A stretch of 32,000 nt of DNA from Geotalea daltonii FRC-32 (GCF_000022265.1 NC_011979.1:3690001-3722000); one strand, 5' to 3'. Shown: positions 7,189 to 22,029, counted from the stretch's first letter. Numbers and translations are program-made. Notes: a model not told the origin generated them from the letters alone.

Positions 7189-10100
7189 CTAATAGGTACC
7201 GCCAACCGTATAGGTCTTGCCGGACTGGTTGGAACATGCGCCTCCGGTATAGGAAACCATGGAACATTGCGGACTGTAGGTACTTGAGCCGATCATCCGC
7301 GGTTGGTGGTTGCTCAGATTCATCCTGTTACGGATAAAGGCATACGGTCTGGTGTTCACCTGAGCAGGGGTGCCTGCCGATCCAAGCCACCGGACAGTTG
7401 CGGTAGCGCCTGTGGTCGGCAAGGCGTTGGTTCCGTGGAAGTTATCCGACCTTGCCGGGCGGGTGCCTGTGTTGGCATCTGCATGACAGTAATGACAGTT
7501 AAGGAAGGTAGTGCCGTTCATATCACCCGAAGTTGTAGTAAAGGCCGAACCGGTTGCGCCGGTATTGTGGCCCGGATAAGTATAGGTGAGGTGACATGAT
7601 GAGCAATGTGTCGGGCTGGACACATAAATAGTACCATTGGTCGTGGCGTTGCCGCCGCGAATCAGAACGTTGGCGTCGCCATGGGCTGAAATGGTGCGGA
7701 GTGTCTTCATTCCGGTAGTCTGGCCGGTGTTGTGACAATCGAAGCAACTCATAATTACACCAGAAGACTTTGTCCCAGAGGTACCGCGGGTGCCGGTCGG
7801 TTTGTAGGGATCGGCAAGTCGGGCAGCGGTTGGGTAGTCAGCCGAGCGGGCGGCACGTACCGGGTGCTTGGATGAGTTGGTCGGGTCGAACTGGCTGAAG
7901 GCATTAAGCACAGTATATCCTCCGCCAAAAGGAGCAGTGGGAGTTGGAGATGTTCCAGCTCTTGCCGTGGTGTTCGCAGCACCTCCAGAATCATGGCAGG
8001 TGAGGCAGAATTTCTGGGTAATTACACTGGCAACTGTATTGTTGATGGCCGAAGACCGGGTTCCTGAAGCAAATGATGTTGAGAAACGCTGGAAGGTGAA
8101 TGCCGCATTGTTATTATCGGTAATGGCAACCTCACCACTGCCATCGGGGTTCCGGAGATCGATATTTCCATCAGCGTGATATTTGGAGGTTTTCTGGGTG
8201 GTGAAGTTGCCCTCCAGGTGGCAGACGATACAGTCAGCATCTGCGACTGCGGTACGAGTTGATTTCTTGTGCCCGTAAGTCTTGCCGAACTCGGCCGTTA
8301 CAGCAGCAAGTTGCTTCCCTGGCCGGCCTTTCGTACGGGTGATGGCCGCTGCATGGCAATCGGTACACTTAAGGGTATTGAGCCCCCAGGTGGTGGTAAT
8401 GTGACAAGCAAGGGTACAGGTGGAGTAGCCGGAATTTGCCGGATGCTTGGCAACGTTGGCCGGGTAGCCCTGGTTCGTAACATCGATGTCTGTGTCGCCA
8501 TGGGCTGCGTTGGCATAGCTCTGGGTTACTGTATTGGAGACGGCGCCGGTATGGCACTCATCACAGATATAACGGCCATAGTTCATGTGAGCCGAATGAC
8601 TGCCGGTGTTGGGACCCTTCTGGTTGGAAGGTGAGGAGTAGGTAATGAAAGCGCCGGCTACGTTGTGGCATGCGCCACAACCTGCGCCCGTGCTGCCCCA
8701 GGCTGGTGTCGAGCCAGCGCCTGAGCCGTAGGGGCTTCCATGACAGGTTGTGCTGCAAGTGCGGTTACTGTAACCATCGTTGGCTGGGTGCTTGGTAACG
8801 TTAGTCTGGTAGCCGACGTTTACTATGTCGATATCACCATCGGTGTGACCATTGGCAACTGACGGTGCGGCGGTTGCCGAAGTCCCTGTCGCGTGGCAGT
8901 TGGTACATGCATAGGCGCTGTGAGTACCATGGCCGCCGGTTGCCGGGCCACTTGCGCCGATAGGATAGGCGGAGTGGCAGGCGGAGCAACCATTGTTGGT
9001 GGTGCCCCATTGTGGCGTGAGTGATGATCCCGTGGTGCTGTAGACATTGCCATGGCAGCTTGCGCTAGAACATTTTGAGGTTGCGCTGCTCCAGCCAAGT
9101 GCCGAGTCAAGATTTACGACAGCAGGGTTGGTGGTGGTGTTACCACTATTTCCGGGCCCGTGATCGGCATTGCCGCCGGAGCCGCCGATATTGTGGCAAG
9201 TGGTACAACCGTTGGTAGCGGCCGGGACGTGGACGGAGTGATTGCCTGCTACATCCGGGTGAACGGTGCCGTTAGGTTCGCCGGTACCGCCTGCAGCACC
9301 ATGGCAGCTGCCGCAGCCGATGTTGGCGGTCAGAGGATCCCCCTTGGTGTGACAGGACTGACAGTTAGGTGGCGTGCCGCCAGTCGCTGGGTAGGTACCA
9401 GCAGGTGTACTGTTGGTATGGCAGCCTATGCCGCTGGAACAATCGGTGTGGCCGGCACTGGTAGCATAAAGTGGAACAGTGTGGCCATTGCCCTTGAAGC
9501 CTTTGTTGTGGGGGTGGCACTTGATGCATTCCGCCCGGTTGTAATGGGTATTGGAAGTCACGGATTTACCGACTGACTTGACGGAAGAGCTATATTGATG
9601 GAAATTTGTCTGGTGGTGGCAGACTTCGCAGATATTGGTCGAACGGTTCAGGGTCGACCGCTGATCGTTACCGAAGAGATCCATGGCATTCGTCACGGTG
9701 GAGGTCATCCGTGAGAAGGTAACGCTTCTTGTGCCTGTTGGGGTGGCAATCTGCTGAGCAACCTGCTTGACGTTATTGGTACCGGCGGTGTGGCACCAGG
9801 TGCAGTCTTTGCCGGCGCCCCAATTGCCGTAGCCTTTGGCGTTGCTTGGATCAAGATTCGCTGCACTGTGCATCAGGGGATTTACGTAGGCAGTAGTGGA
9901 AGTAGACCCGGTCACTATGCCGTTTGCCGGGGTGCGGCCATCAGCGTCAGTGAATGTCGCCTGGAAATAGTAGATAGTTGATTCAGCAAGGTTATTGATG
10001 GTAGCAACATAGGAGCTGCCGGATTTTGCGGAGGTTGCTGTGTTAGGATAGGTCCCATTGACAGTACCCCACTTGATGACACAGCTGTTATTGTTGTTAT

Positions 10101-11772
10101 CGTCACCTGTAAAAGGTGCAGTCACCGTGATCGAGTTGCTGGTAACGCCCGAATAGCTAAGCGCTCCTGCAGTGGTGCCGTTAACAGCAGCGGCACGAGT
10201 GACGGTAACCGTGTAGGTCTTGGTTGTAGTGCCGTCTTGGGCAGTGACGACCGTGGTAATGGTGTTTGACCCGACCACAAGGGCTATGGGAGCGGATGCC
10301 GTACCGCTGGCAACGGTGGTGCCGTTCACTTTAACTGTTGCAGTCGCGTCCTCAACCGTGGGAGTCACTGTAATTGAGGCAACGGGGTTAGCGACCGAGG
10401 CCGTGTAGGATATGGTTCCGCTGGCAAAAGCAGGGCTCAAGGTACCGGAAGACAGCACCAGGTTGCTCAGATTTGCATTTGTTGAAGCAGCGGCCGCACG
10501 TGTAACGACAACGGTGTATGTCTTGGTGGTTGTGCCATCTTGTGCAGTAACGACAGTTGTTATGGTGTTTGCGCCCACACTCAGTGCAATCGGGCCGGAA
10601 GCCGTACCACTGTTGACTGCAGTGCCGTTTACGGTGGTGGTGGCGGTGGTATCAGCCTCGGTGGGTGTTACTGTAATGGAGGAAACGGAGTTTGCTACCG
10701 AGGCGGTGTATGAGGTAGTTGCACTGGAGAAAGCAGGTGACAGCGTACCGCTGGACAGAACAAGATTACTCAGATCTGCATTTGAGGAGCCTGCTCGGGT
10801 AACAACCACTGTGTAGGTTTTGGTCGTAACGCCATCTTGGGCTGTTACGACAGTTGTGATCGTATTGGAGCCGACTGCAAGGGAAATGGGGCCGGAAGCA
10901 GTACCACTGTTGACAGCAACTCCATTAACAGTTGTCGTAGCCGTCGTGTCCGCCTCTGTCGGCGTAACGGTAATAGACGAGACGGAATTGGCGACAGAAG
11001 CGGTATAGGAGGTGGTCGTGCTACTGAAGGTAGGCGTCAATGTCCCAGACGAGAGCACTAAATTGCTAAGGTTGGCATTATTGGAAGCCGCGACAACCTC
11101 ATTAACAATCAAAACACCAGAAGTTCCTGTTCCGGCCGTATCAGCTGTAGATCCCCAGTATACCCGCTTAGCAGTTGATGTACCCGCTGTCGCTCGAACA
11201 CGGATGCCGAGCTTGGCACCGACAGGAACAGTCGCAGATTGTCCTGTCAATGACAGAGTGACTGTTGAATCTCCTACCGATGCCACCGCCGATGTCACTT
11301 CAGTGCCGGTGAAATCTGTTTTTGTCCCGCTCGAAGTCACATAAAATAACCTGACACCGGCAGTCCATCCACCAGACCCACTGTCGCGAAGCCTTACTTT
11401 AAAGGAGGTGCCTGTTACCGTGGTGGCAACAGCATATGCAGAATTAAAATACGCCTCCACAATAGTGCCTGCACCGGAAACAGTATGGACAGCACGCTGA
11501 CTGGCGCAAGCAAAAGCGGATGTATCCATTAGGGTTGTAACAGCCCCGGTATTATTTGTTCCGCATGCACTCGAGTCGGTCAAAACTCCGGTTGCGACCG
11601 TGGTCCCTGAATTGACCTGAAGATTATAGGTCACTGAAGCGGCCATGATTTCATGTGGCTTATACCACCCCTCATACATGAACACCGACAGGGTCAAAGT
11701 AAACAGCACCGTCAATGCCACCTTTGCCCACAGATTCAATCCTCGGATCTTCTTAGCGATAACCTTACCCAT
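7189..11772 (-). CDS. Giant membrane-anchored multiheme c-type cytochrome (~20 heme motifs) fused to three cadherin-like beta-sandwich repeats and an FN3-like segment
   Basis: 1527-aa ORF with SD AAGGGG upstream. The N-terminal basic plus hydrophobic anchor spans aa 1-33. Three ~100-aa repeats of the form '[38 protein letters not shown]...[10 protein letters not shown]' span aa 232-526. There are 16 CXXCH motifs between aa 657 and 1430, plus CX5CH (aa 778), CX4CH (aa 901), CX3CH (aa 1006) and CX3CH (aa 1119). Confidence 0.9.
10195..11079 (-). repeat. Three tandem ~300-bp coding repeats (cadherin-like domains) inside the cytochrome gene
   Basis: The protein repeat period is 99-101 aa (L235, L334, L435). 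The same periodicity shows in the antisense shadow ORFs at 10220, 10412 and 10820, which have near-identical translations. Confidence 0.85.
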
Positions 11773-12322
11773 AATCTCTACCCCTTAGTCAAGTAGTAAT
11801 CAAAATATATTAAAAGAAGCCTTTTCATCCGCGCTTGTCTTTAAATAATAAAATTCTAGGAGCTAATGAATGCAAAAACAGTACCCATAATCTAGACAGT
11901 AACCCTCCCATTAAAGTACAGCACCAAGCAAGGTCTGAAAACGGCTGGTTTAAAACAATAATTTTCTGGCTATCACGAGGTTTGCGTGGATATTTTTTTA
12001 TACGAATATGTGCCCCCGAGTAAATTCAACAGGTTATCCCAATGCCGTATCCACTCCCCCCCTTTCAATTTTGCCGGCAGCGCAAGATCCATTACGTTGT
12101 AAAACGGACGCCGATAGTCATTTGACCATTGATGCAATAGCGAGGAACCAAAGTCGAAATTGCCCGGAACCTTATATACATTATTAGCAATTGTCAAGAT
12201 ACATGTCTTACTGATCTTTTACGCCGCAGTTCAAAAGCATGACCCCGAGCCCAAAATTGTTGTTTAGCGTTGTTTAGTCTGTTAGATTACCTCCATATCC
12301 ATTTTGATTGGAGACCCACTAT

Positions 12323-13246
12323 ATGGTCCACGGAATCTTCAGCAGGCATTATTTATTTCTGCTATTCATCCTGCTAATACTTGCGATGTCTTCGATGGCA
12401 GGCTGCCGGGAGCGGAGCAAGAGGCCGATGATGCGCATCGGCTATATGAATTGCAATAACGAGCAGGAGACAATGGCACGTTTTCAGCCCCTTACCCGTT
12501 ATCTCTCGGAAAAGCTCAATGTTGATTTCGTGGCCGTCCCGGTTGATACCCATGATTTCGAAAAGCGATTCCGCGATGGCGAATTTGCCTTCACCCATAC
12601 GAACTCCCTACTCTATATAATTCTCCGTGAGAACTACCAACTGCAAATTATTGCCTCCGACAAGCGCGGCAATTTCGGCTCCCGTACCGGCGGCGCCATT
12701 ATCGCCCGCAAAGGGAGCGGCATAAACAAGCTGTCCGACATCCGCGGCAAAAGGATGGTCTTTGGGCCGATGCTGGCCCCAACCGGCTACCTTGCCGAGT
12801 ACGACCTGATGCTGCGGTCAGGCATCGACCCGGAGAAAGATCTCGCCTTTTACGCCATCCCTTCAGGTTCATACAAACACGAAAAACTGGTTTACGGGGT
12901 GCTTTTCGGGCAGTATGACGTTGGTGCTGCCCCTCTGCTGGATCTTGAGGTTATGGCACGGGAAGGGAAAATATCCCCCGATGATTTTGTCATTATTGGC
13001 CAGACACCCCTCATCCCATACTGCACTTTCGGAGCAGCAACCAAGACCGATCCTGAGCTTGTCGCAAGGTTCCGCCAAGCGCTACTCGAACTGAAACCGA
13101 CCGATACCGTGGAAATCAACGGCGAGCAGGTCAAGGTGCTGAAGGCTGCCTGGGCCGATGGATATGAGCAGCTGCTTGACAAGGACTATGACACGATTCG
13201 CGACATGGCCCGCCGTGTGAATATGCCCCCCTATCAAAAATACTGA
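12323..13246 (+). CDS. PhnD-family periplasmic substrate-binding protein (phosphonate/phosphite-type fold), lipoprotein-like N-terminus
   Basis: PhnD-like pattern: 'RIGYM...LTRYLSEKLNVDF...' and 'GGAIIARKGSGINKLSDIRGKRMVFGPMLAPTGYL...YDVGAAP'. ATG at 12323 is preferred over TTG at 12308 because GGAG at 12309-12312 then sits ~10 nt upstream. 'SSMAGC' is a lipobox-like signal. Confidence 0.7.
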   Translation: MVHGIFSRHYLFLLFILLILAMSSMAGCRERSKRPMMRIGYMNCNNEQETMARFQPLTRYLSEKLNVDFVAVPVDTHDFEKRFRDGEFAFTHTNSLLYIILRENYQLQIIASDKRGNFGSRTGGAIIARKGSGINKLSDIRGKRMVFGPMLAPTGYLAEYDLMLRSGIDPEKDLAFYAIPSGSYKHEKLVYGVLFGQYDVGAAPLLDLEVMAREGKISPDDFVIIGQTPLIPYCTFGAATKTDPELVARFRQALLELKPTDTVEINGEQVKVLKAAWADGYEQLLDKDYDTIRDMARRVNMPPYQKY

Positions 13247-13253
13247 GGCTCGT

Positions 13254-13796
13254 GTGTTTAAAGACCGATTCGATAAGTTGCTCTGGCTGTTACTGTTCAT
13301 GGTATTTGCGGCCCTGGCCATGCTGATTGGCAGGCATACCTCATCCGGTAAAACAAACGCCCCAGCCGTCGCCACCTCAAAAGCAATGGAAAGGGAGATG
13401 GCTTTCCAGGCACGAGTCACCCTGCTGCAAAAACTATATGCTCCCGTGGAGGACCTGCGCCTGCGTGGTGACATGCAGGGAGCCCTCCTGCGACTGGATG
13501 AGCTCAACCGTTCCTACCCGGGTGAAGCCCACGGTTATATAATGAAAGGTCAGATCCTCCATCAGGCAGGGGCAATAGAAGAAGCCGTTTCCAGTTATGT
13601 CCAGGGCATAAAATTAAGCGGCAACTACATTGACCGTAAAAATCCCCTGTCAAGACGAGATGACGTAAAACGTCTTGTCGAGGAAGGACAGCAGATAATC
13701 AGGAGAGCCAGGGCTAACCCGGACAACATTTCCCTGGCCGCTGCAGTTAAAAATATCAATTACCTTAGAAGCCGCCTTGCAGGGGGATGTGAGTAA
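13254..13796 (+). CDS. Membrane-anchored TPR-like protein
   Basis: 180-aa ORF with a GTG start. N-terminal TM 'LLWLLLFMVFAALAMLI'. TPR-like helix pairs 'AHGYIMKGQILHQAGAIEEAVSSYVQGIKL'. Only 7 nt after the upstream stop. Confidence 0.5.
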   Translation: MFKDRFDKLLWLLLFMVFAALAMLIGRHTSSGKTNAPAVATSKAMEREMAFQARVTLLQKLYAPVEDLRLRGDMQGALLRLDELNRSYPGEAHGYIMKGQILHQAGAIEEAVSSYVQGIKLSGNYIDRKNPLSRRDDVKRLVEEGQQIIRRARANPDNISLAAAVKNINYLRSRLAGGCE

Positions 13797-13798
13797 GA

Positions 13799-14863
13799 AT
13801 GAATCTGAAAGACCGGCATTTCTGGATCATTGTTGTTACCGGTGCTTTGATGGGGACTTTCGGAGTGCTGCTCTCCGTCTGGGGTAATCCCGAAAACTCC
13901 GGCATCTGTGTTTCATGCTTTATCGAGAACAGTGTGGGGGCATTGGGTTTCCACGACAACTCACGCATGCAGTACCTGCGTCCTGAACTGGTCGGTTTTG
14001 TCTTGGGCGCCATGTTGAGCGCCGCCGCTTTCAGGGAGTTTCGTGCCCATGGGGGCAACAATCCGCTGCCACGGTTGATTGCCGGGATATTCCTGATAAT
14101 CGGTTGCGCCGTCTTTATAGGCTGCCCTATCAAGCTGTTTCTCCGTTTGACAGCCGGGGACCTCACTGCTTTGGCTGGAGTTGCCGGCCTGGTTGCAGGT
14201 GTCTGGATCGGTCTCAAGGGATTGGCCAATGGTGTAGAATTGGGGAGTTCCGGAAAGCAAACCGGCAGCAGCGGTCTGCTTATCCCTGCTTTTTTTTGCA
14301 TCTTGCTGCTGTTTATGATATTCCCGCCGGCATTCATCCTCTCTTCAGGCACAGGAAGCGCAGCACAATATGCACCAATGGCCGTTTCCCTTGGCGTCGG
14401 TCTGTTGCTCGGAGCCTTTGCCCAGCGAAGCAGATTCTGCATCACCGGTAGTGTCCGCGACGCTATTCTAATGGGTTTCAGGTCCCATATGCCATGGGGA
14501 TTCTTGGCCTTCGTTGCTGCAGGAACTGTCACCAGCATCAGCTCCGGCAGATTTCATCCCGGTATGTTCGGACAACCGGGAGCCCATCTGGACCATCTAT
14601 GGAGTTTTCTCGGAATGCTCTTGGCAGGCTGGATATCGGTGCTGATCGGCGGCTGCCCGTTCCGACAGCTGATAAAATCAGGTGAAGGAGACGCAGATGC
14701 GGGTCTGGTGGTCGTTGGAATGCTTATCGGCGGTGCCGTCGTACAATCATGGACACTGGCAGGAACCGCCGCCGGTGTTCCTTTTTACGGTAAAGTGGCA
14801 GTTCTCGCCGGCTTCATATTTATTCTGCTGACATGCTTGCTGAGCCGCGAGCGTCAAGACTGA
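13799..14863 (+). CDS. yedE: YedE/YeeE-family sulfur/selenium-compound transporter
   Basis: 354-aa polytopic protein. The N-terminal signature is 'WGNPENSGICVSCF', and the second-half conserved Cys lies in 'SRFCITGS'. The ATG is 2 nt after the upstream stop. Confidence 0.75.
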   Translation: MNLKDRHFWIIVVTGALMGTFGVLLSVWGNPENSGICVSCFIENSVGALGFHDNSRMQYLRPELVGFVLGAMLSAAAFREFRAHGGNNPLPRLIAGIFLIIGCAVFIGCPIKLFLRLTAGDLTALAGVAGLVAGVWIGLKGLANGVELGSSGKQTGSSGLLIPAFFCILLLFMIFPPAFILSSGTGSAAQYAPMAVSLGVGLLLGAFAQRSRFCITGSVRDAILMGFRSHMPWGFLAFVAAGTVTSISSGRFHPGMFGQPGAHLDHLWSFLGMLLAGWISVLIGGCPFRQLIKSGEGDADAGLVVVGMLIGGAVVQSWTLAGTAAGVPFYGKVAVLAGFIFILLTCLLSRERQD

Positions 14864-14874: not shown

Positions 14875-15762
14875 TTAACGGCAACAGGGATCAGGTTCAT
14901 CCCAGGAACCGCCGGCAAAATATCCCCTGCCACGGCACCCGCCAAAGCAACCCGACAGCTCTAAGCACCCGTCGCACCCTTTGGGCGTCTTCATCAAGTT
15001 CTCCCGCAAGCTTCTTTTTGCCATCGAATGCACAATTGATGACAGTGTCATCTCCTTGAGATTCCCCAAGGCCACGGGAAGAGACGGACAGGGGTAAACA
15101 TCACCGCTGGCCGTGATGCTAAGCATGGTATTGGCTGCCTGGCAACTCCCTTCCGGAAAATGAAGGGTCGGGAAGAACACCCGCCACAAAAAAGGGTCGT
15201 GGATAACAACCTGCATTTTGTCAGGCTTGACCACCTCTTTTATTCCATCGGAGAGTTTCTGCCGCTGTTGCCTGTCCAAGGCAAAATAGCCTCCACCACA
15301 GGAGAGCCGTTGCATGGGCAATACCAGTGATAAACCATGATTGGCGCAGAACGAGTATATCTCCGGCAGCTGATGGTAATTATCAGCTGCAACGGCAAAA
15401 GAGATCCCTGGTACCGGTACGCCGGCAGTTCGGAAATCATGGCGATTCACTCGGGCAAGGTCTGCTGATTCTTCAATAGCCACATAGAGATTTCTAAGGC
15501 GGTAATGGCAGATCTGATCCAGAAGTGCAGGAGTAATGGTCGCCAGGGGAATGGTCAAAGAAAGGGCAATCTGAACCGGGGAAAATAATTCCAGTAATGG
15601 CAGGTAAATGGCGCCGGGAGTGGCCTTCGTAGCGGTGAGATCGAGACTGAGTATCTTCAGCACTATGATCTGCTCACCGACACTGAGACAATCATTATCA
15701 GCAGCGTCGGCAGGCAAATCCCAGTAAATCCTGATGGGAGTTTTCAGCTCACTGAAATTCAT
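14875..15762 (-). CDS. SPASM-domain protein lacking the radical SAM CX3CX2C cluster (GeoRSP-type SPASM partner)
   Basis: A full SPASM cysteine pattern is present: 'C-X17-C' (ending 'GDVYPC') followed by 'CDGCLELSGCFGGC' (CX2CX5CX3C) and a C-terminal 'DPCC'. There is no CX3CX2C anywhere after Met27. The start at 15762 forms an ATGA overlap with the upstream stop. The longer 321-aa ORF-track form overlaps the upstream gene out of frame. Confidence 0.75.
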   Translation of the reverse strand: MNFSELKTPIRIYWDLPADAADNDCLSVGEQIIVLKILSLDLTATKATPGAIYLPLLELFSPVQIALSLTIPLATITPALLDQICHYRLRNLYVAIEESADLARVNRHDFRTAGVPVPGISFAVAADNYHQLPEIYSFCANHGLSLVLPMQRLSCGGGYFALDRQQRQKLSDGIKEVVKPDKMQVVIHDPFLWRVFFPTLHFPEGSCQAANTMLSITASGDVYPCPSLPVALGNLKEMTLSSIVHSMAKRSLRENLMKTPKGCDGCLELSGCFGGCRGRGYFAGGSWDEPDPCCR

Positions 15763-16757
15763 GGCTGCCAGCAGTGGGGATCGGGACTGTTGAAATCGCC
15801 GGTCAACGCAAGGGCACGGGCACTGCAGCCTCCAAGGCATTCATTGTAGTCGCTGCAGCCGACACATTTACCTGTCGCCACTTTGTTGCGCAGCTTTTCC
15901 AGAATCGATGAGCTCTTCCATAGCTCCCGAAGGTCGTCGGCAAGGATATTGCCGATGACGATGGGTATGAAACCGCAGGGGGTAATGTCGCCATTGGACT
16001 TTATGTTCAGGGACAGCTTGCCGCAGACACTCCCCTTGACCATGTTGTTGGTGTCATGCATTCCCAATGAGGCGATTATCGGATCATCCAGGGAGATGTC
16101 CAGCTTACGCCCCCGCTGTTTTTCCATTATCGCCTCTGCGTAAAATGACTGCCATTCCTCAGGTGTCAGGTCCAGATCATCCCTGTTGGAATAACCGAGG
16201 CCCGAACATTTGAAATTGTGGAAGTTGAGCTGCTCCACATGGAGTTTTTCCGCCAAATCTATGAGCGGAGCAACGTCACGGTGGTTCAACTTGCAGATAA
16301 CTGTGGAGATGGAAGTCTTTATTCCTGCCTCCTGCAAGTATGCCAAAGCATTTACGGCACGCCCGTGGCTGCCGGACACACCACGGAAATGGTCATGGAT
16401 GGCAGGAACGTGGCTGTCGATACTGATGCCCACCTTGCTGAACCCGGCCTCTTTCAATTCCAGGGCTTTCTTGCGGTCGATGAGGTAACCATTGCTGTTC
16501 ATGGATACTCGCATGCCGCTTTGGGCAGCACAAGAAGCGATCGTCGCCAAGTCCTGACGCAGCAGCGGCTCGCCACCGCCGAAATTGACCGACATGACAC
16601 CAGCCGTGGCAACTTTCTCAAGACACTGGCATAACATACTGCAGTCTATTTCTTTCATGGCATCATTGCGGCTATAGCAGTGGCGGCAGGCGAAGTTGCA
16701 GTTATTGTTGACAGCCCAGTTTATCGTAAGCGGTGCCTTAAGCTGAATTTCACCCAT
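15759..16757 (-). CDS. Radical SAM/SPASM-domain maturase
   Basis: 'CNFACRHC' is a CX3CX2C motif, followed by 'GGGEPLL'. The SPASM pattern is 'C-X15-C' (ending 'GDITPC') followed by 'CVGCSDYNECLGGC' (CX2CX5CX3C) and 'DPHC'. The start at 16757 (MGEIQL) overlaps the PqqD-like stop as ATGGGTGA. Confidence 0.85.
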   Translation of the reverse strand: MGEIQLKAPLTINWAVNNNCNFACRHCYSRNDAMKEIDCSMLCQCLEKVATAGVMSVNFGGGEPLLRQDLATIASCAAQSGMRVSMNSNGYLIDRKKALELKEAGFSKVGISIDSHVPAIHDHFRGVSGSHGRAVNALAYLQEAGIKTSISTVICKLNHRDVAPLIDLAEKLHVEQLNFHNFKCSGLGYSNRDDLDLTPEEWQSFYAEAIMEKQRGRKLDISLDDPIIASLGMHDTNNMVKGSVCGKLSLNIKSNGDITPCGFIPIVIGNILADDLRELWKSSSILEKLRNKVATGKCVGCSDYNECLGGCSARALALTGDFNSPDPHCWQP

Positions 16758-17106
16758 AGAAGATAAACCCTTTCTGTTCCAGATCCTGCAAAAACGAATG
16801 CACATCCTGAGACAGTACTGCTCGTTCTACCTCAAAGTCAGCCAGTAAGGAATCGATGATCTCCTCGACGGTCCTGCCGTCGCAGATCTTCCATATTTCG
16901 GTGCCCATCAGGTTCAGAGTAATCATGATGCCGTCCGAGAAGAGCAGCGAGGTGCCCACTTCGGTCACGTCATTCCCCTTCTCCAGCCCTGCGCTCGCTT
17001 CCAAAAGAGAGTCCTCTTCCTCGCGCCACATCACATCAGGGTTTCTAAATACCTTTTTCAACAACACGCCCTCCTTTATGGAATGTTGTATCAGCGACCA
17101 ATGCAT
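16750..17106 (-). CDS. PqqD-family protein (RiPP-recognition-element-like chaperone)
   Basis: 'ITLNLMGTEIWKICDGRTVEEIIDSLLADFEV...VLSQDVHSFLQDLEQKGFI' fits the PqqD/RRE pattern. The start is uncertain. ATG 17106 gives 118 aa. The 151-aa form starting at 17205 would overlap the ResB-like gene. Confidence 0.7.
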   Translation of the reverse strand: MHWSLIQHSIKEGVLLKKVFRNPDVMWREEEDSLLEASAGLEKGNDVTEVGTSLLFSDGIMITLNLMGTEIWKICDGRTVEEIIDSLLADFEVERAVLSQDVHSFLQDLEQKGFIFYG

Positions 17107-17131: not shown

Positions 17132-18061
17132 TTATCTTTGTGCAAACCTTCGCCAAAAAGCAAGAACTGCCCCAAGACACATGATTGCGAAGCCGCAGAA
17201 AACAACAGGCCGGCCCGGATCTTTCACTATCTGAATGCCTGCGAAGGAGCGGCCATTTCCGTCGGTTCCAGTCTGTGTATGATAGAAACAGAGTCCCTGC
17301 CAGGAAAACGGTGCGTTGATTTCCGATGTCCCCGAGACAGGGGGCTTGTCATCACTGGATAGCTGAAGATCGACCCACATCCTCTTGAGCTGGGGATTTT
17401 TATAGGAGACAAGCTTGAAAGCATAAGGGAAATCGAGAGGCAGCGTGCTGTTACCGGAGGTGTCGGCTGTGCCGACGATCCCGTCCCCTTTGTGAACCAC
17501 AAGTACCAGCCTGAGATTTTTGGGCTCAAAGTCCGTGACCGAGACACGATAACCGGGCAGTTCAAAACTTTCACCGGTGGCAAGGGTGAACAGGCCGTAT
17601 TTTTCGTTACCCTGCAGGACACCGACGCGGACCGGCACCGGGTAATACTGGCGATTTATCTGCTTTACCCATAGCCGCATGTGGAATGGGGCATCCCTCT
17701 TCAGGTCCCAGCGAAAAGCCTCGTCTACAAAGGTGCCTTCATAAACGTTCACCGTGGCCACATAACCAAAGGAGGTGATCACACAGCCCAAAAGAGTAAC
17801 CAGAACTCCTCCATGAAGAACGAGGGTCGATCCGGCTAACGAGCGCCACCTTTTCATGCTGCAGCATATAAGGTTCAATGCCATCAGGGCCAGCAGACTG
17901 ACAAACAGTGGGCTTGAGTAAATCGCCCGTGATTCGGTGAAGGTTCCTGGTATTGCAACGATGGTCAATATACCGAAAAGGGCAATTGCCAGTTCCGTTG
18001 AGGAGAGACCATTGATAATTCGTGATTTCAGACCCGGTGGCAGCAAGACAGAACCTTTCAT
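17132..18061 (-). CDS. ResB-like cytochrome c biogenesis family protein (short, orphan paralogue)
   Basis: The ResB-type N-terminus is 'LSSTELAIALFGILTIVAIPGTF...SSPLFVSLLALMALNLICCS'. There is a second TM segment, a ~200-aa soluble region and a C-terminal TM. No CcsA partner is adjacent. The start is ATG 18061 or TTG 18067. Confidence 0.7.
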   Translation of the reverse strand: MKGSVLLPPGLKSRIINGLSSTELAIALFGILTIVAIPGTFTESRAIYSSPLFVSLLALMALNLICCSMKRWRSLAGSTLVLHGGVLVTLLGCVITSFGYVATVNVYEGTFVDEAFRWDLKRDAPFHMRLWVKQINRQYYPVPVRVGVLQGNEKYGLFTLATGESFELPGYRVSVTDFEPKNLRLVLVVHKGDGIVGTADTSGNSTLPLDFPYAFKLVSYKNPQLKRMWVDLQLSSDDKPPVSGTSEINAPFSWQGLCFYHTQTGTDGNGRSFAGIQIVKDPGRPVVFCGFAIMCLGAVLAFWRRFAQR

Positions 18062-18080
18062 CCGCAAAGCAGACTGTGCA

Positions 18081-18659
18081 TCAGATTAACTTCTTTGCCT
18101 TGAGATATTCCCGGGCCAGCTTGTTCGGCTTGTCCTCGGCCTTTACCATTTTGACCATTCTGGAATAGTTGTTGTCATTGACAATCCCGGTGAGCTTGTT
18201 GATCAATTTCGGTAGAGCCGGCAGATTGCCTAAAATCTCGAGAGAAATAACCGGTGCAACCAGCTGGCTGGAGCCATTGCCGGTCAAGGTGCCCAGTGGC
18301 TCGAGCCAGACAAGGTTGAATGTCTTGCGATGCTCTCTTTTTACAATCTCGAATGCAGTTTTGGCGTTGGCTTCCCTAGGTCGCTTGACCAGCTCCAGCC
18401 CGTGATCTGTGTTTTCAATGATCAATCCCACCTGGCCGTGCCTGACCGCATTGTATATTTCGGCCCCGGTCTTGAAGGTAAGGATTTTGACGGAGGTGCC
18501 GGTCCTCTCGGTGACAAGGACGGAGATCATTTCAGCAAGCAATTGATCATTGGGGGAGTTGGTGACACCGATATAGAGCACCTTGCCGACGCAAGCCCTG
18601 GCTTGGGTTGCCATAACGGCCAGAAGGGTAAAGATCACCAGCACAACCAACCTCTTCAT
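18081..18659 (-). CDS. Secreted OpuAC-like (glycine-betaine-type) substrate-binding domain protein
   Basis: Signal peptide 'MKRLVVLVIFTLLAVMATQARA'. 'QLLAEMISVLVTERTGTSVKI...EIYNAVRHGQVGLIIE' resembles the ABC glycine-betaine SBP fold. GAGGAGGA lies 6 nt upstream of ATG 18659. Confidence 0.5.
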   Translation of the reverse strand: MKRLVVLVIFTLLAVMATQARACVGKVLYIGVTNSPNDQLLAEMISVLVTERTGTSVKILTFKTGAEIYNAVRHGQVGLIIENTDHGLELVKRPREANAKTAFEIVKREHRKTFNLVWLEPLGTLTGNGSSQLVAPVISLEILGNLPALPKLINKLTGIVNDNNYSRMVKMVKAEDKPNKLAREYLKAKKLI

Positions 18660-18680
18660 AAAACATCCTCCTCGCATCAG

Positions 18681-19379
18681 CTATTTTGCCGTTAATACCA
18701 CGTCGATTGCAATATCCGATTGGGATGATACTGCAGACAGCCGTTTTTCCAGCTTCATTCCAGGACCAGTGGGAAAGGTTACGGCGGCGCCGATAAAATA
18801 TTCGCCGGGAGGCAGATAAAGGGTGTACAGGCCGGTTTCCTCGGTCCAGCCGGAGACATAATCGGGCAGCTGGCTCACCTCCCTCATGGCGTTGACCAGC
18901 ACATACGCCGAGCTGACAGGCGCCCCCTCACCGTCTACCACCCTTCCACGGACCTTGACCATATCCTCTCTGGCTTTTTGTTTGCCCTTCGCCACCTGGC
19001 GTATATCGGCAACGATGAATTGCCGTTCAACGAGCCCTTCATCGGCATCAATGGCCACAGGTTCACCTGAATGCTGGGCCGCAGGTGACAGTGGACCATA
19101 CTTGCCATCCTGGCGCACCCTTGCCACAGCCCAATATCTTTTGCCTGCAGGCAACTGGATGGTGTAGCTGCCCTCCTTATCGGATGGTCCGGTAATGAAA
19201 TCAGCGGGGCGCCTGGTATTGGTACTGTCGTAGATGAAAACCTCGGCACCGCAGACTCCCTTGCCGGCCATATCGACAATTTTCCCGCGGAAGATGAATG
19301 TTTGCGCAGCCATATCTTCACCATAACTGAAAGTGACCATGAACAACAAAAGTAAAATTGCGAGTGCTGATTTTCTCAT
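18681..19379 (-). CDS. Secreted protein with two carboxypeptidase-regulatory-like (prealbumin-fold) domains
   Basis: A signal peptide is present. Two copies of the motif occur: 'FRGKIVDMAGKGVCGAEVFIY...GSYTIQLPAG' and 'VRGRVVDGEGAPVSSAYVLV...GLYTLYLPPGEY'. The start overlaps the upstream stop by 4 nt. Confidence 0.6.
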   Translation of the reverse strand: MRKSALAILLLLFMVTFSYGEDMAAQTFIFRGKIVDMAGKGVCGAEVFIYDSTNTRRPADFITGPSDKEGSYTIQLPAGKRYWAVARVRQDGKYGPLSPAAQHSGEPVAIDADEGLVERQFIVADIRQVAKGKQKAREDMVKVRGRVVDGEGAPVSSAYVLVNAMREVSQLPDYVSGWTEETGLYTLYLPPGEYFIGAAVTFPTGPGMKLEKRLSAVSSQSDIAIDVVLTAK

Positions 19380-21856
19380 TGCACTATATTCCCTGTCTTG
19401 ACCCGCTTTGAGAGAAATGGCTCAAAAATTACCACGCCTATGCCAGGCTCATTACGCCCGTCAAAAATGGTGTTAGCCGGGATACCCTCCCCCCACCAAT
19501 TTCCGGCGGCATCCACATTTTCGTCGTTAAAGTCGCCGATCCTGACGTTGTAGCCGGTGTTGTCAAACAGGTTGCTGCCGTTGATTTTCAGACCACTGCC
19601 TTTTTCTCTGACAAATACACCCGTTTCATTCCTGGTTATGTCGCTCGCCTCAATGCTCCCATTGCCACGATAGGAACGGATACCTATGGAATTATCCCTG
19701 AAAAGGCACCGTTTAATGGATACCGGGCCGCTTCTGAAACGCATGCCGCCATTATTGTTGCGGAAAATGCTGTCGGCAAGGGACAGTTTGGTAAAATGGC
19801 TGTGCAGGCCCCATTGGGCATACTCGAAAACCGCATGGGAGATGACACTGCCGTTTGCATGCTCCAGAAGCACCTCGTCCCACGTACCCGGCAATTTTTT
19901 ACCTGCGGAGGTGAAAATGACTTCGCGGCCTTTTTCACCTCTGGCAACGATTTTACCGTTGACTGTCATTCCTGAACCTTCGGCAAACAAGACTTTAGTT
20001 CCAGCCAAAAGAGTAAGAGTACTCGCCGTGGGAATCTGGAGCCTGCGATTTGCGATAATCTCGCCTTGCCATACGGTCGGAGTAGCCACGCTGGCCAGCG
20101 GCCAGACGAAGGGCACCGGTTGTGTCAATGGATTATCGGAAATGATGCGGCCTCGGGAAGGATGGTTTCTGCGATCAAAGATCACCCTGGCAGGCTCATC
20201 AGTCCCCCACCAGTTGTCCGGTGCTTCCACATCATTTGTACCTTCCTGATCAATTGCCCAGAGTCCGTTGCCCATGAAGCTGTTGCCGGTAAGGGTTCCG
20301 GTAAAGGAGAGCAACCCTAGTCCCCGTTCACCATTGGCGGCAATCTGGTTCCCCTTGATCTCGGCTCTGGTTTCCTGCAGATTCATCCCGTTGAGGCCGT
20401 TGTTCGCCACAAAATTTCCGAAAAGTTCTATATTGTCGGAATTTTTCAGGGATAAGCCTGTTTCAGCATTATTGGAGACAACGTTACGGTTAAACCTGCC
20501 GGAAAAAGTGTCAGCTACCATGAGGCCAAACCTGTTACCGTCAATCAGATTCTCTTCCATGACGGTAACCCCTTCCCTTAGTCTCAGCCCATCCCTCCTG
20601 TTGCCAATGAACTCGTTTTGCCTGACCTGCAGGTTACATCTGAAGAAGTTTCCCCCTATGTAATTGCTGCTGATCAGATTGCCTGACATATCGATAGTAG
20701 AGTTCCTGCCCTGGATGCCACTCTTGTTTTCATACAACCGGTTGCCATGGAGCACAACCAGGGATTCCTGAAATTGAATAGCGCGATAGTTTCCCTTCAG
20801 CACTGAATGCGTCACCGCCACATTGGAAAAATGAAAATGGAGCCCTCGATAGGCGCCCTCTATCTGGCAATACTCGATCAGGTTCTGGACTCCATCGCTG
20901 CCCATGATGTTTATAGCGTCCCAGTCAGTATCTGACCTGCCTTTTTCGGCCGAACGAAAGATAATCGGTTCCTTGGCACTCCCCTTGGCCAAAATACTGC
21001 CTTGTATCATCAGTCCATTTTCGCCAATCCCATCACCATTTGAATCTCTTCTGCTGAATTCGATGACAGTACCCGGAAGTATCGCCAGCCTGGCTCCTTC
21101 AGGCACTCGGATGATCCCTTTGACGATGATGTGCCCTTGCCAGATTGTGCTGCCCAAAAGCACCTCATCCTGGTAGATTCTACTGACAGGCAGGTCTTTT
21201 GTAGTGCTGAGGGGAATCTGAGCTGCCGGCTGCTGGAGATCTGCTGCATGGAAATCCTTTTTCCTGTTGTTGCCAATGGTGCTATTATGCTGCACGATCC
21301 TGGCACCGCTGAAAGCGTAGACCCCGAAATCATTGTCTGCAACAGTAGTGGATTTGAGGACCACAGAACTTTTTGGCCCGATTGCCGATACTCCATACCG
21401 GTTCCCATTGATTTTGCAGCCGTCCACTGTTGCCGTTCCCTCAATGACATGCAAGGCAGTTTCCGCATTGTCTATACTGCATCCACTGAGGAAAGCCCTG
21501 CCTCCATCCACGATCAAACCAGCCCATGAAGCATTTTTGGCTTCGCCAGGCGAAGAAAATTTGACCGGGAAAGTCCTTGTGCCCTCCACTTTCAATGTTC
21601 CACGAACGGTGATCTCGGTTAAGGGAGATATGTATTCAGGATCAGTCTTGGTAGTATCGGCGGGAATTATCCTTACAACAGTGCCTGGTTTGAGGGTCAG
21701 GGAGATACCTGACGGAACAATCACATCTTCGTTGACGGTGACTTCTCCCTGCCATGTGGTATCGGCAGTTAATAGAGTTGCAAACGCAAAAGCAGGAAAT
21801 AGCAGGCACAGGGCAAAGGCAACCAGGAAGGTAGTTTTTTTCATGGGCAGAGTCAT
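19376..21856 (-). CDS. Secreted right-handed parallel beta-helix repeat protein (NosD/CASH-like), three helix modules
   Basis: 826-aa ORF with signal peptide 'MKKTTFLVAFALCLLFPAFAFA'. Three cap modules begin 'TTWQGEV', 'STIWQGHI' and 'PTVWQGEI'. Each is followed by many PbH1-like 'N...G' repeats. Confidence 0.7.
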   Translation of the reverse strand: MTLPMKKTTFLVAFALCLLFPAFAFATLLTADTTWQGEVTVNEDVIVPSGISLTLKPGTVVRIIPADTTKTDPEYISPLTEITVRGTLKVEGTRTFPVKFSSPGEAKNASWAGLIVDGGRAFLSGCSIDNAETALHVIEGTATVDGCKINGNRYGVSAIGPKSSVVLKSTTVADNDFGVYAFSGARIVQHNSTIGNNRKKDFHAADLQQPAAQIPLSTTKDLPVSRIYQDEVLLGSTIWQGHIIVKGIIRVPEGARLAILPGTVIEFSRRDSNGDGIGENGLMIQGSILAKGSAKEPIIFRSAEKGRSDTDWDAINIMGSDGVQNLIEYCQIEGAYRGLHFHFSNVAVTHSVLKGNYRAIQFQESLVVLHGNRLYENKSGIQGRNSTIDMSGNLISSNYIGGNFFRCNLQVRQNEFIGNRRDGLRLREGVTVMEENLIDGNRFGLMVADTFSGRFNRNVVSNNAETGLSLKNSDNIELFGNFVANNGLNGMNLQETRAEIKGNQIAANGERGLGLLSFTGTLTGNSFMGNGLWAIDQEGTNDVEAPDNWWGTDEPARVIFDRRNHPSRGRIISDNPLTQPVPFVWPLASVATPTVWQGEIIANRRLQIPTASTLTLLAGTKVLFAEGSGMTVNGKIVARGEKGREVIFTSAGKKLPGTWDEVLLEHANGSVISHAVFEYAQWGLHSHFTKLSLADSIFRNNNGGMRFRSGPVSIKRCLFRDNSIGIRSYRGNGSIEASDITRNETGVFVREKGSGLKINGSNLFDNTGYNVRIGDFNDENVDAAGNWWGEGIPANTIFDGRNEPGIGVVIFEPFLSKRVKTGNIVQ

Positions 21857-22022: not shown

Positions 22023-22029
22023 CTCAATA

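What the first reader, a model, noticed from the sequence alone, without database searches (positions are those of the whole stretch)
14875..17106. PqqD-like protein, radical SAM/SPASM enzyme and a SPASM-only paralogue ('GeoRSP'-type cassette) with no visible precursor peptide
Seen in the sequence:
- Three translationally coupled genes, with overlaps ATGGGTGA at 16750-16757 and ATGA at 15759-15762.
- The first encodes a PqqD/RRE-like protein.
- The second is a complete radical SAM/SPASM enzyme with CNFACRHC plus CX2CX5CX3C.
- The third keeps a full SPASM cysteine set (CDGCLELSGCFGGC, GDVYPC, DPCC) but has no CX3CX2C triad at all.

From memory, this trio corresponds to the family set named 'GeoRSP system' in TIGRFAMs/NCBIfam. 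As far as I know, no substrate or product has been established for it.

The gene gaps in the operon are all 25 nt or less, so there is no room for a short precursor ORF. The substrate must therefore be encoded elsewhere, be one of the neighbouring secreted proteins, or not be a peptide at all.

A catalytically 'headless' SPASM protein paired with an active paralogue suggests a heteromeric enzyme or a dedicated Fe-S/substrate carrier.
Basis: partly seen in the sequence, partly recalled or inferred. Interest (0 to 1): 0.8.

Follow-up and report, generated by a model that had tools for sequence, protein, structure and literature searches.

The report
GeoRSP radical SAM peptide-maturation cassette
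These three genes are the catalogued but uncharacterised 'GeoRSP' radical-SAM cassette of Geotalea daltonii, and related loci carry a conserved 20-residue peptide ending in His-Pro-Cys that is probably its missing substrate, encoded just outside this window.

Summary
On the minus strand, 16750-17106, 15759-16757 and 14875-15762 encode a PqqD-type chaperone, a complete radical SAM/SPASM enzyme and a paralogue without the CX3CX2C triad. All three pass NCBIfam's GeoRSP models well above cut-off. RefSeq already names them so in Geotalea daltonii FRC-32 (Geob_3351-3353).

Three corrections:
- The PqqD gene more likely starts at TTG 17061.
- The 'SPASM-only' protein is a full-length, dead radical-SAM fold.
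- The trio belongs to a gene set conserved in about 90% of testable loci across two phyla: NosD-like, CarboxypepD_reg, OpuAC-like and ResB-like genes, plus PhnD-like/TPR/YedE.

The main new result is an unannotated ORF of 18-23 codons, consensus MKKxxYVxP(K/R)(I/V)VGSAxVHPC.
- It lies between the rSAM and dead-paralogue genes in 15 divergent loci, including a candidate-phyla-radiation genome that has nothing else of the cluster.
- It lies upstream of the NosD-like gene in many Geobacterales.
- It is usually found just after genes for giant exported proteins, often multihaem cytochromes.
- The window has no copy. A contig 99.88% identical to the window carries one about 2.6 kb beyond its left edge.

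GeoRSP is therefore most likely a peptide-maturation system whose precursor is unlinked here. The chemistry and the product remain unknown.

The parts
16750..17106 (-). PqqD-family peptide chaperone (RRE), Geob_3353. This is the longest ATG ORF; the probable true start is TTG 17061 (103 aa).
   Evidence: TIGR04302 scores 191 bits against a cut-off of 100, matching residues 16-117. Pfam PqqD scores 67 bits. RefSeq aa. A Shine-Dalgarno sequence precedes 17061. Orthologous loci carry stops in the extension.
15759..16757 (-). Active radical SAM/SPASM enzyme, Geob_3352 (332 aa)
   Evidence: TIGR04303 scores 690 bits against a cut-off of 400. CNFACRHC, GGGEP and CX2CX5CX3C are present. The nearest solved relative by sequence is PqqE 6c8v, 79.7 bits.
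14875..15762 (-). Catalytically dead radical-SAM-fold/SPASM paralogue ('GeoRSP SPASM domain protein'), Geob_3351 (295 aa)
   Evidence: TIGR04304 scores 535 bits against a cut-off of 300. Seven Cys are invariant (C207, C225, C263, C266, C272, C276, C294) and there is no CX3CX2C. The AF2 model has pLDDT 86 and pTM 0.87 and shows a (beta/alpha)6 barrel plus SPASM. The top Foldseek hits are SuiB, anSME, PqqE, SkfB and CteB.
16750..16757 (-). ATGGGTGA start/stop overlap between the PqqD and rSAM genes
   Evidence: Read. The same 8-nt overlap occurs in 54 of 68 related loci.
15759..15762 (-). ATGA start/stop overlap between the rSAM and paralogue genes
   Evidence: Read. A 4-nt overlap is the commonest arrangement in related loci.
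17132..18067 (-). ResB-like membrane protein (311 aa), same operon
   Evidence: Pfam ResB matches the C-terminal segment. Present on the same strand upstream of the trio in 53 of 57 loci with enough flank.
18081..18677 (-). Short OpuAC-like exported protein (198 or 192 aa) with an invariant Cys straight after an AxA-type signal-peptide end
   Evidence: Pfam OpuAC. The Cys is present in 55 of 55 orthologues. It is the only cluster gene next to the trio in L004 and sits next to the paralogue in L079/L080.
18681..19379 (-). Exported CarboxypepD_reg-domain protein (232 aa)
   Evidence: Pfam PF13620. There is a weak hit to TIGR04134, 'radical SAM-associated putative lipoprotein'. Conserved in 53 of 57 loci.
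19376..21856 (-). Exported NosD-like right-handed beta-helix protein (826 aa), first gene of the operon
   Evidence: Pfam Beta_helix and NosD. Conserved in 53 of 57 loci.
21917..21945 (-). Promoter-like site TTGCCT-17-TATATT between tRNA-Pro and the NosD-like gene. In many Geobacterales the small peptide gene sits at this position; here it holds none.
   Evidence: This is a consensus match only, and the count of such sites in the region is not above chance.
12308..14863 (+). PhnD-like lipoprotein (12308-13246), membrane-anchored TPR protein ending ...RLAGGCE (13254-13796) and YedE-family putative sulfur/selenium transporter (13799-14863). They are convergent with the trio.
   Evidence: TIGR04112 scores 391 bits against a cut-off of 200; Pfam Phosphonate-bd. 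PhnD-like and YedE are each present within 10 kb in 42 of 46 loci, and TPR in 40 of 46. All three are adjacent to the trio in the sister clade. The TPR tail is conserved.
7189..11772 (-). Cytochrome c annotated with 20 haem-binding sites, with cadherin-like domains (Geob_3347). This is associated context, not part of the cassette.
   Evidence: Proteins that cluster with it lie near the cassette in 23 of the 74 sequences compared (73 loci plus the window). Multihaem cytochrome genes are the commonest gene just upstream of the small peptide gene.

Best explanation
The three genes are the GeoRSP cassette of Geotalea daltonii FRC-32. I read them as the cytoplasmic core of a peptide-maturation pathway of the PQQ/mycofactocin/RiPP kind. 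Their substrate would be a small, previously unannotated peptide with consensus MKKxxY(V/I)xP(K/R)(I/V)VG(S/N)AxVHPC.

Shown:
- The family identity of the three proteins.
- The intact radical-SAM and SPASM motifs in the enzyme.
- The stable, family-wide loss of the SAM cluster in the paralogue, with seven SPASM cysteines retained.
- The existence, protein-level conservation and genomic linkage of the peptide ORF.
- Its absence from this window, and its presence 2.6 kb beyond the window edge in a near-identical contig.

Inferred:
1. PqqD binds the basic N-terminal half of the peptide and presents it to the rSAM enzyme, as PqqD does for PqqE and MftB for MftC.
2. The enzyme cleaves SAM and abstracts a hydrogen from the invariant C-terminal core (V-H-P-C-COOH). 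The most likely outcomes are a thioether or another cross-link involving the terminal Cys, or an MftC-like oxidative change at the C-terminus.
3. The dead paralogue, which still has two auxiliary-cluster sites, either pairs with the enzyme or holds and processes the peptide's Cys on a cluster.
4. The product is exported and acts in the envelope. The exporter would be an ArsP-type permease in most loci, and a CbiQ/ABC pair next to the peptide gene in this lineage. The envelope partners would be the NosD-like, CarboxypepD_reg and OpuAC-like proteins and the multihaem cytochromes.
5. The YedE/PhnD-like/TPR module, plus a cysteine-desulfurase-family gene in the sister clade, points to sulfur or selenium supply.
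For: Identity:
- The three HMMs score far above cut-off.
- RefSeq uses the GeoRSP names for these exact sequences.

Dead paralogue:
- 0 of 120 homologues have the triad and 118 of 120 keep CX2CX5CX3C.
- The model is a radical-SAM barrel plus SPASM.

Peptide location:
- It lies between the rSAM and paralogue genes in L073 and L075-L078.
- The same holds in 10 metagenome loci: L093, L117, L128, L142, L148, L162, L167, L173, L191 and L196.
- The rSAM proteins there still pass TIGR04303: 461, 452 and 432 bits against a cut-off of 400.
- L073 is a candidate-phyla-radiation contig where PqqD-rSAM-peptide-paralogue stand alone between ComF and RecG.
- The peptide gene is within 700 nt upstream of the NosD-like gene in 10 of 36 testable Geobacterales loci.

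Peptide specificity:
- A profile of the peptide separates hits cleanly. In the window plus 81 loci there are 29 hits of at least 33 bits, and the next best is 9 bits.

Coding evidence:
- There are 140 unique copies, all with an in-frame start 18-23 codons before the stop, and 135 have a Shine-Dalgarno-like motif.
- Codons 2-8, which were not part of the search pattern, have entropy 0.79/1.04/1.55 bits at positions 1/2/3.

This lineage:
- L202 is 99.88% identical to window 1-10265.
- It carries MKKTYVAPKVVGSAIVHPC, scoring 42 bits, about 17.4 kb from the trio.

Cluster conservation: 53 of 57 loci have each of the four upstream genes, and 42 of 46 have PhnD-like and YedE.
Against: - No copy of the peptide is in the 32-kb window; the best score is 5.9 bits.
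- Only 19 of the 73 genome loci have a copy within 10 kb, so linkage in the canonical clade is loose.
- Most copies follow genes for giant exported proteins (multihaem cytochromes, beta-helix or LamG proteins) rather than the trio.
- In the near-identical contig the peptide gene follows a BchE-like B12-binding radical SAM gene, which could be its true or an additional modifier.
- No binding, modification or expression was tested, and the chemistry is inferred by analogy only.
- L202 is a metagenome contig, not the FRC-32 chromosome.
- The cluster contains no peptidase.
Confidence: 0.6

Rival explanations
1. Protein maturase. The trio would modify one of the co-conserved cluster proteins before export, as anSME does for sulfatases and QhpD for QhpC. 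Candidate targets are the invariant Cys at the mature N-terminus of the OpuAC-like protein and the conserved C-terminal ...AGGCE tail of the TPR protein.
For: - NosD-like, CarboxypepD_reg, OpuAC-like and ResB-like genes accompany the trio in 53 of 57 loci.
- L004 has only the OpuAC-like gene plus the trio.
- L079/L080 have the paralogue next to OpuAC-like and NosD-like genes.
- The Cys is invariant in 55 of 55 OpuAC-like proteins.
- The TPR tail is conserved across clades.
Against: - The candidate-phyla-radiation locus L073 has none of these proteins but does have the small peptide.
- L079/L080 also carry the peptide directly upstream of the paralogue.
- From general knowledge of the family, stand-alone PqqD chaperones are known to bind short leader peptides.
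- A Cys at that position could simply mark the signal-peptide processing site.
Confidence: 0.12
2. Tetrapyrrole tailoring. The enzyme and its paralogue would be an AhbC/AhbD- or NirJ1/NirJ2-like pair acting on a haem-type cofactor for the neighbouring cytochromes, with PqqD in some other role.
For: - After GeoRSP itself, the best-scoring characterised models are NirJ2 (184 bits) and AhbD (182 bits), rising to 216 bits for AhbD in L073.
- A ResB-like gene lies in the operon.
- A cytochrome annotated with 20 haem-binding sites, with its own ResB/CcsB pair, lies nearby.
- A BchE-like B12 radical SAM gene sits next to the peptide gene in L202.
Against: - These scores are far below the curated cut-offs (184 against 500).
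- MftC and PqqE score in the same range.
- A dedicated PqqD chaperone is translationally coupled to the enzyme in nearly all loci.
- The ResB-like gene is absent from the sister-clade and candidate-phyla-radiation loci that keep the trio and the peptide.
Confidence: 0.08
3. The small ORF is real but is not the trio's substrate. It would be a leader or attenuator peptide, a small subunit, or the substrate of other enzymes tied to the giant exported proteins. The trio's substrate would remain unknown, or in this genome the cassette is an orphan remnant.
For: - Peptide genes lie 17-90 nt after multihaem cytochrome (30), beta-helix (19) or LamG (7) genes, and a hairpin follows the stop.
- The window's cluster has lost the permease and cupin genes found in most loci.
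- Linkage to the trio is loose in the canonical clade.
Against: - The invariant P...HPC core is conserved at the protein level whatever gene follows.
- The position between the rSAM and paralogue genes recurs in 15 loci, and the four-gene set stands alone in L073.
- All three window proteins are full-length with every motif intact.
Confidence: 0.12

Closest known systems
GeoRSP system (NCBIfam TIGR04302 / TIGR04303 / TIGR04304)
   Same: It is this system. All three models are passed far above cut-off, the gene order and coupling match, and RefSeq applies these names to the very same sequences.
   Different: The held NCBIfam release has no model that matches the candidate peptide. I found no paper on function, substrate or the wider cluster. 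The peptide and the conserved surrounding gene set described here are additions.
Mycofactocin maturation (MftA peptide, MftB chaperone, MftC rSAM/SPASM)
   Same: It has a stand-alone PqqD-family chaperone, a SPASM enzyme and a very short precursor with a conserved C-terminal core. MftC is among the best-scoring characterised relatives: 147 bits here and 210 bits in the sister clade.
   Different: The score is below the MftC cut-off of 265. The peptide ends in HPC rather than GVY. There are no MftD/E/F genes. There is an extra dead paralogue, and the neighbours are envelope and exported proteins.
PQQ biosynthesis (PqqA, PqqD, PqqE)
   Same: PqqE is the nearest solved structure by sequence (6c8v, 79.7 bits) and a top structural match of the paralogue model. 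The precursor is of similar size, and the logic of chaperone plus SPASM enzyme is the same.
   Different: PqqE scores 126 against a cut-off of 381 and PqqD 40 against 46, both below cut-off. There are no PqqB/C genes. The peptide has no Glu-X3-Tyr core.
AhbC/AhbD and NirJ/NirJ1/NirJ2 (haem and haem d1 radical SAM enzymes)
   Same: These are the closest characterised HMMs after GeoRSP. They also occur as adjacent paralogue pairs, and the genomic setting here is haem-related.
   Different: Scores are 139-184 bits against cut-offs of 500-650. Those systems, as far as I know, have no PqqD partner and no peptide.
Sactipeptide/ranthipeptide synthases and anSME (CteB, SkfB, SuiB, anSMEcpe)
   Same: They share the fold with the paralogue model (Foldseek TM 0.59-0.69). 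In several of them the chemistry centres on a substrate Cys. From memory, the substrate Cys of CteA ligates an auxiliary cluster of CteB.
   Different: Sequence identity is only 13-16%. Those enzymes are single active proteins with a fused or absent RRE. The dead partner protein has no counterpart among these.

Membership tests
GeoRSP system (NCBIfam) | PqqD-family member passing TIGR04302 | tested here: met
   191 bits against a cut-off of 100, matching profile positions 1-102 of 102.
GeoRSP system (NCBIfam) | Radical SAM/SPASM member passing TIGR04303, with CX3CX2C and the SPASM cysteines | tested here: met
   690 bits against a cut-off of 400. CNFACRHC and CX2CX5CX3C were read in the sequence.
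GeoRSP system (NCBIfam) | SPASM-domain member passing TIGR04304 and lacking the radical-SAM cluster motif | tested here: met
   535 bits against a cut-off of 300. 0 of 120 homologues have CX3CX2C.
GeoRSP system (NCBIfam) | The three genes adjacent, on the same strand and in this order | tested here: met
   The overlaps are 8 nt and 4 nt. The same order holds in the loci that carry all three genes, 68 of which were measured.
RRE-dependent rSAM/SPASM peptide maturation (RiPP or peptide-derived cofactor) | A short precursor peptide gene linked to the maturase genes | tested here: inconclusive
   Not met in the window (best 5.9 bits). Met in 15 divergent loci, where the gene sits inside the cassette, and in 19 of the 73 genome loci within 10 kb. 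A near-identical contig has one 17.4 kb from the trio.
RRE-dependent rSAM/SPASM peptide maturation (RiPP or peptide-derived cofactor) | The chaperone binds the peptide and the enzyme modifies it | not testable with these tools
   This needs binding assays, co-expression and mass spectrometry. No multimer modelling was available.
AhbC/AhbD, NirJ family | Passing the equivalog models TIGR04545/04546/04051/04054/04055 | tested here: not met
   139-184 bits against cut-offs of 500-650.
PQQ biosynthesis | PqqE and PqqD equivalog scores; pqqA/B/C neighbours | tested here: not met
   PqqE scores 126 against 381 and PqqD 40 against 46. No PqqB/C-like genes were found among the neighbours.
Mycofactocin system | MftC equivalog score; MftA-type GVY peptide | tested here: not met
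   MftC scores 147 against a cut-off of 265. The linked peptide family ends in HPC.
TIGR04347 pseudo-SAM/SPASM family | Passing TIGR04347 | tested here: not met
   Only the active enzyme hits it, at 152 bits against a cut-off of 525. The window's dead paralogue does not hit it.

The most novel reading that the evidence does not exclude
GeoRSP would make a new peptide-derived cofactor or metallophore from the 20-residue ...VHPC peptide. Its three-component machinery would be a chaperone, an active radical SAM enzyme and a dead, cluster-bearing paralogue. The product would be exported to serve the extracellular redox or metal machinery of metal-reducing Geobacterales and Thermodesulfovibrionia: giant multihaem cytochromes, NosD-like beta-helix proteins and YedE-type sulfur/selenium import. 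It might be a His/Cys metal ligand, or even a haem- or chalcogen-bearing peptide.
Probability: 0.3. Interest if true: 0.85.

Novelty: already known. Interest (0 to 1): 0.6.

Why it matters
GeoRSP is a named family whose substrate I could not find reported. A concrete candidate makes the question directly testable with synthetic peptide, three genes and mass spectrometry. The candidate is a 20-aa peptide with an invariant Pro...His-Pro-Cys core, which no model in the held NCBIfam release matches and which I did not find in the literature searched.

The link to giant multihaem cytochromes, NosD-like proteins and a YedE-type transporter holds across Geobacterales, Nitrospirota and a candidate-phyla-radiation genome. 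This hints at an unrecognised small molecule in extracellular electron transfer or metal/chalcogen handling.

The stably maintained dead radical-SAM paralogue that keeps its auxiliary-cluster cysteines is an unusual partner for a peptide-modifying enzyme.

The case also shows that 'no precursor' calls made from one locus, or from ORF lists cut at 30 codons, can be wrong.

Tried and rejected
- **ORF clustering at 30 aa or more** across 73 loci found no conserved small gene, because the peptide has 18-23 codons. It surfaced only when I translated the 160-280 nt gaps between the rSAM and paralogue genes in divergent loci.
- **Selenocysteine recoding** in cluster proteins: no in-frame TGA aligned to Cys. 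The only stops are in N-terminal extensions or in a poor draft assembly.
- **A remnant of the peptide gene in the window.** The stretch ...AEVVGAPSQ... lies between tRNA-Pro and the NosD-like gene at the position where other genomes hold the peptide. It has no start codon and no Shine-Dalgarno sequence, and shares only VVG. I judged it chance.
- **A peptide after the window's cytochrome gene.** Only an intrinsic terminator is there.
- **Permease, cupin and FmdE homologues in the window:** absent.
- **Protein-database search with the peptide:** The NCBIfam scan of the peptide found nothing.
- **Literature searches** for GeoRSP, the TIGR numbers, the Geob locus tags and the peptide motifs found nothing relevant.
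- **Promoter and terminator scans** of the operon gave counts no higher than in shuffled sequence.
- **Walking outward from both window ends.** The left side yielded the peptide. The right side, a pilin/PilSR region, yielded nothing.
Full report
**What is in the window.**
- Three minus-strand genes occupy 17106/17061-16750, 16757-15759 and 15762-14875.
- Their junctions are the overlaps ATGGGTGA and ATGA.
- Against NCBIfam they score 191 bits for TIGR04302 (cut-off 100), 690 bits for TIGR04303 (cut-off 400) and 535 bits for TIGR04304 (cut-off 300). All are end-to-end matches.
- Pfam sees PqqD in the first, Radical_SAM plus SPASM in the second, and SPASM only in the third.
- The sequences are exact matches to Geotalea daltonii FRC-32 proteins Geob_3353, Geob_3352 and Geob_3351. 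RefSeq already names these 'GeoRSP system PqqD family peptide chaperone', 'GeoRSP system radical SAM/SPASM protein' and 'GeoRSP system SPASM domain protein'.
- I found no paper that mentions GeoRSP, the TIGR numbers or the locus tags.

**Corrections to the observation.**
- The PqqD HMM match starts at residue 16 of the 118-aa ORF.
- RefSeq aa.
- Orthologous loci have stop codons within the first 15 codons.
- AAGGAGG precedes TTG 17061.
- The gene therefore probably starts at 17061, which leaves a 70-nt gap after the ResB-like gene.
- Nothing else about the operon's compactness changes.

**The 'SPASM-only' protein is a dead radical-SAM enzyme.**
- An AlphaFold2 model built on 25 homologues (pLDDT 86, pTM 0.87) has six beta/alpha units followed by the SPASM domain.
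- Its best PDB matches are SuiB, anSME, PqqE, SkfB and CteB, aligned over more than 310 columns (TM 0.59-0.69 for those five enzymes).
- Its N-terminus (ELKTPIRIYWDL) lines up with the enzyme's LKAPLTINWAV strand that precedes CX3CX2C.
- Seven cysteines are invariant, and 0 of 120 full-length homologues have a CX3CX2C.
- The loss is therefore old and the protein is under selection, which fits a cluster-binding, non-radical role.

**The surrounding genes form a conserved set.**
- A genome-collection scan gave 73 loci from Geobacterales, Nitrospirota/Thermodesulfovibrionia and one candidate-phyla-radiation genome.
- In 53 of 57 loci with enough flank, the trio is preceded on the same strand by four genes: NosD-like beta-helix, CarboxypepD_reg, short OpuAC-like and ResB-like. 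These are the four genes upstream in the window.
- In 42 of 46 loci a PhnD-like lipoprotein gene and a YedE-family transporter gene lie within 10 kb, and a small TPR gene in 40 of 46.
- Most loci also have an ArsP-type permease of about 635 aa and a 106-aa cupin between the ResB-like gene and PqqD. Several have an FmdE-family protein after the paralogue.
- The window has none of these three.
- A more distant clade includes Desulfuromonas sp. metagenome-assembled genomes. Its rSAM still passes TIGR04303, while its paralogue scores only 88-97 bits on TIGR04304.
- In the long contigs of that clade the order is OpuAC-like, NosD-like x2, PhnD-like, TPR, YedE, PqqD, rSAM, paralogue. A cysteine-desulfurase-family gene follows (TIGR01977, 411 bits), then a small lipoprotein gene.

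**The missing precursor.**
- In that clade and in the candidate-phyla-radiation locus, the rSAM and paralogue genes are 160-280 nt apart instead of overlapping.
- Translating the gaps showed one conserved ORF in all five loci: M(M)KKY(M/V/Q)KP(R/Q)VVGSSNVHPC, and MKIKYIQPKIVGSSSIHPC in the candidate-phyla-radiation locus. Each has a strong Shine-Dalgarno sequence and a hairpin after the stop.
- The same family then turned up in canonical loci. It typically lies 100-250 nt upstream of the NosD-like gene, sometimes with extra copies up to 10 kb away.
- In L079/L080 it lies directly upstream of a paralogue gene that is followed by OpuAC-like and NosD-like genes. No PqqD or rSAM gene is found in the DNA held, about 10 kb upstream and 5 kb downstream.
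- A profile of 23 peptides gave 29 hits of at least 33 bits in 25 of 81 loci, and nothing between 33 and 9 bits.
All of them match the profile.
- Ten of these again show the order rSAM, peptide, paralogue.

**Is the ORF translated?**
- The core positions were fixed by my search pattern, so their conservation proves nothing.
- The N-terminal half was not in the pattern. Across 82 unique 20-aa copies, K2, K3, Y6 and V7 are conserved, and entropy is 0.79/1.04/1.55 bits at codon positions 1/2/3.
- All 140 unique copies have an in-frame start 18-23 codons before the stop, and 135 have a Shine-Dalgarno-like motif.
- The 60 nt downstream fold at -21.8 kcal/mol, against -13.5 for shuffled sequence.
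- P9, P19 and C20 are invariant, and Y6, V12, V17 and H18 are nearly so.
- No NCBIfam model matches the peptide.

**Where the peptide genes sit.**
- Across the metagenome set, the gene just upstream on the same strand is most often a multihaem cytochrome (30). Next come a NosD-like/beta-helix protein (19), a giant LamG/fn3 protein (7) and the rSAM (4).
- The gene just downstream is most often NosD-like (26) or an rSAM/SPASM-family gene, usually the paralogue (6).
- Several loci carry two or three different copies.
- The peptide is thus tied both to the GeoRSP cassette and to genes for large extracellular redox or beta-helix proteins.
- That includes the kind of cytochrome found at 7189-11772 in the window, which is annotated with 20 haem-binding sites.

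**This genome.**
- The window has no copy. The spot upstream of the NosD-like gene holds tRNA-Pro, its terminator and a promoter-like site. The cytochrome gene is followed directly by a terminator.
- Looking up the window's first gene returned a metagenome contig, L202, that is 99.88% identical to window 1-10265 and extends 8 kb further left.
- L202 encodes MKKTYVAPKVVGSAIVHPC (42 bits) on the same strand as the trio, about 2.6 kb beyond the window edge and 17.4 kb from the trio.
- The peptide gene lies 55 nt after a BchE-like B12-binding radical SAM gene and ahead of CbiQ, ABC and CarboxypepD_reg genes.
- The same order, B12 enzyme then peptide, recurs in another Geobacter genome.
- For this lineage, 'encoded elsewhere' is therefore the supported answer.

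**Mechanism.**
- I commit to a peptide-maturation model, as laid out in the best explanation. PqqD presents the basic N-terminal half, and the rSAM enzyme acts on the invariant ...VHPC end. The dead paralogue partners the enzyme or handles the peptide's Cys, and the product is exported to work with the envelope proteins.
- Only the gene-level facts are shown. Binding, chemistry, export and function are inferred.
- The YedE (TIGR04112), PhnD-like and Cys-tailed TPR module, together with the sister clade's cysteine-desulfurase-family gene, point to sulfur or selenium supply.
- The NirJ/AhbD-like affinities, the ResB-like gene, the cytochromes and the BchE-like neighbour keep a haem-related reading alive as a minority view.

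**Verdict.**
- Interest is moderate to high. The function is unknown, and a specific, testable substrate candidate and a conserved wider system have now been defined.

Noticed in passing
window 18081-18677 (-), and orthologues in L002-L079: Every OpuAC-like protein of the cluster has a signal peptide ending small-x-small, followed by an invariant Cys (AxA|C[V/I/F]G[K/R/P]). That is 55 of 55 orthologues, plus the sister-clade and AT-rich-genome copies. The -2 residue is often charged. The site therefore looks like a signal peptidase I site that leaves an N-terminal Cys, not a lipobox.
   Followed up: partly
window 13254-13796 (+): The small membrane-anchored TPR protein between the PhnD-like and YedE genes ends in a conserved ...SR(L/I)AG(G/S)C(E/G/A) tail. 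The tail is present in Geobacterales, Nitrospirota and the sister clade. It may be a sulfur/selenium acceptor Cys for YedE.
   Followed up: partly
window 1678-11772 (-): This looks like an operon. It runs from a cytochrome annotated with 20 haem-binding sites (three cadherin-like domains) through a TmcD-like beta-propeller protein, a second ResB-like protein, CcsB and a 177-aa unknown to a B12-binding radical SAM protein (445 aa). A strong terminator hairpin lies straight after the cytochrome stop, at about 7135-7180.
   Followed up: partly
between window 17132 and 17061, compared with L026 6630-8924: The window, and G. toluenoxydans (L001), lack the ArsP_1-family permease (about 635 aa, related to SO_0444/SaoE metal efflux proteins) and the 106-aa cupin with an HTHHGxH motif. 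In most loci these two genes separate the ResB-like gene from PqqD. A third arrangement replaces them with a 300-aa protein, a TPR protein and a small NosD-like protein.
   Followed up: partly
L202 5390-7013 (about 2.6-4.2 kb left of window base 1); L052 17886-19615: A BchE-like B12-binding radical SAM gene (403 bits on TIGR02026, below the cut-off of 481) is followed within about 55-155 nt by a copy of the small peptide gene. This occurs in two Geobacterales lineages. In L202, CbiQ, ABC and CarboxypepD_reg genes come next.
   Followed up: partly
L073 8415-10927: A 420-kb contig labelled Candidatus Portnoybacteria carries PqqD, rSAM (TIGR04303, 461 bits), the peptide and the paralogue between ComF and RecG. 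It has none of the envelope genes. This is a minimal four-gene version in a reduced genome.
   Followed up: partly
L079 9875-13678; L080: In an AT-rich genome (GC 0.26-0.31) the peptide gene is followed by the dead paralogue, an OpuAC-like gene and two NosD-like genes. No PqqD or active rSAM gene lies within 10 kb upstream or 5 kb downstream.
   Followed up: partly
L075 8962-10428; L076 4012-5455; L078 10981-12458; L191 6007-7179: In the sister clade the paralogue gene is followed by a cysteine-desulfurase-family gene (TIGR01977, related to the selenocysteine lyase SclA). In L075, L076 and L078 a conserved lipoprotein gene of about 90 aa comes next; in L191 only the desulfurase-family gene was identified.
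   Followed up: partly
window 21857-26724 (-): Upstream of the operon lie tRNA-Pro (22030-22106), a small MerR-like gene, ihfA, pheT, pheS and rplT. This housekeeping block ends abruptly at the NosD-like gene's promoter region.
   Followed up: no
L001 (Geotalea toluenoxydans JCM 15764 draft): The NosD-like, ResB-like and rSAM genes are split by in-frame stops in this draft assembly but are intact in a newer assembly of the species. This looks like sequencing error rather than pseudogenes.
   Followed up: partly
peptide family (alignment A2): From memory, the methanobactin precursor leader (...KKVLPVIGRAAA...) resembles the KPKVVGSA stretch of the peptide. This is an untested lead towards a metal-binding role.
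   Followed up: no
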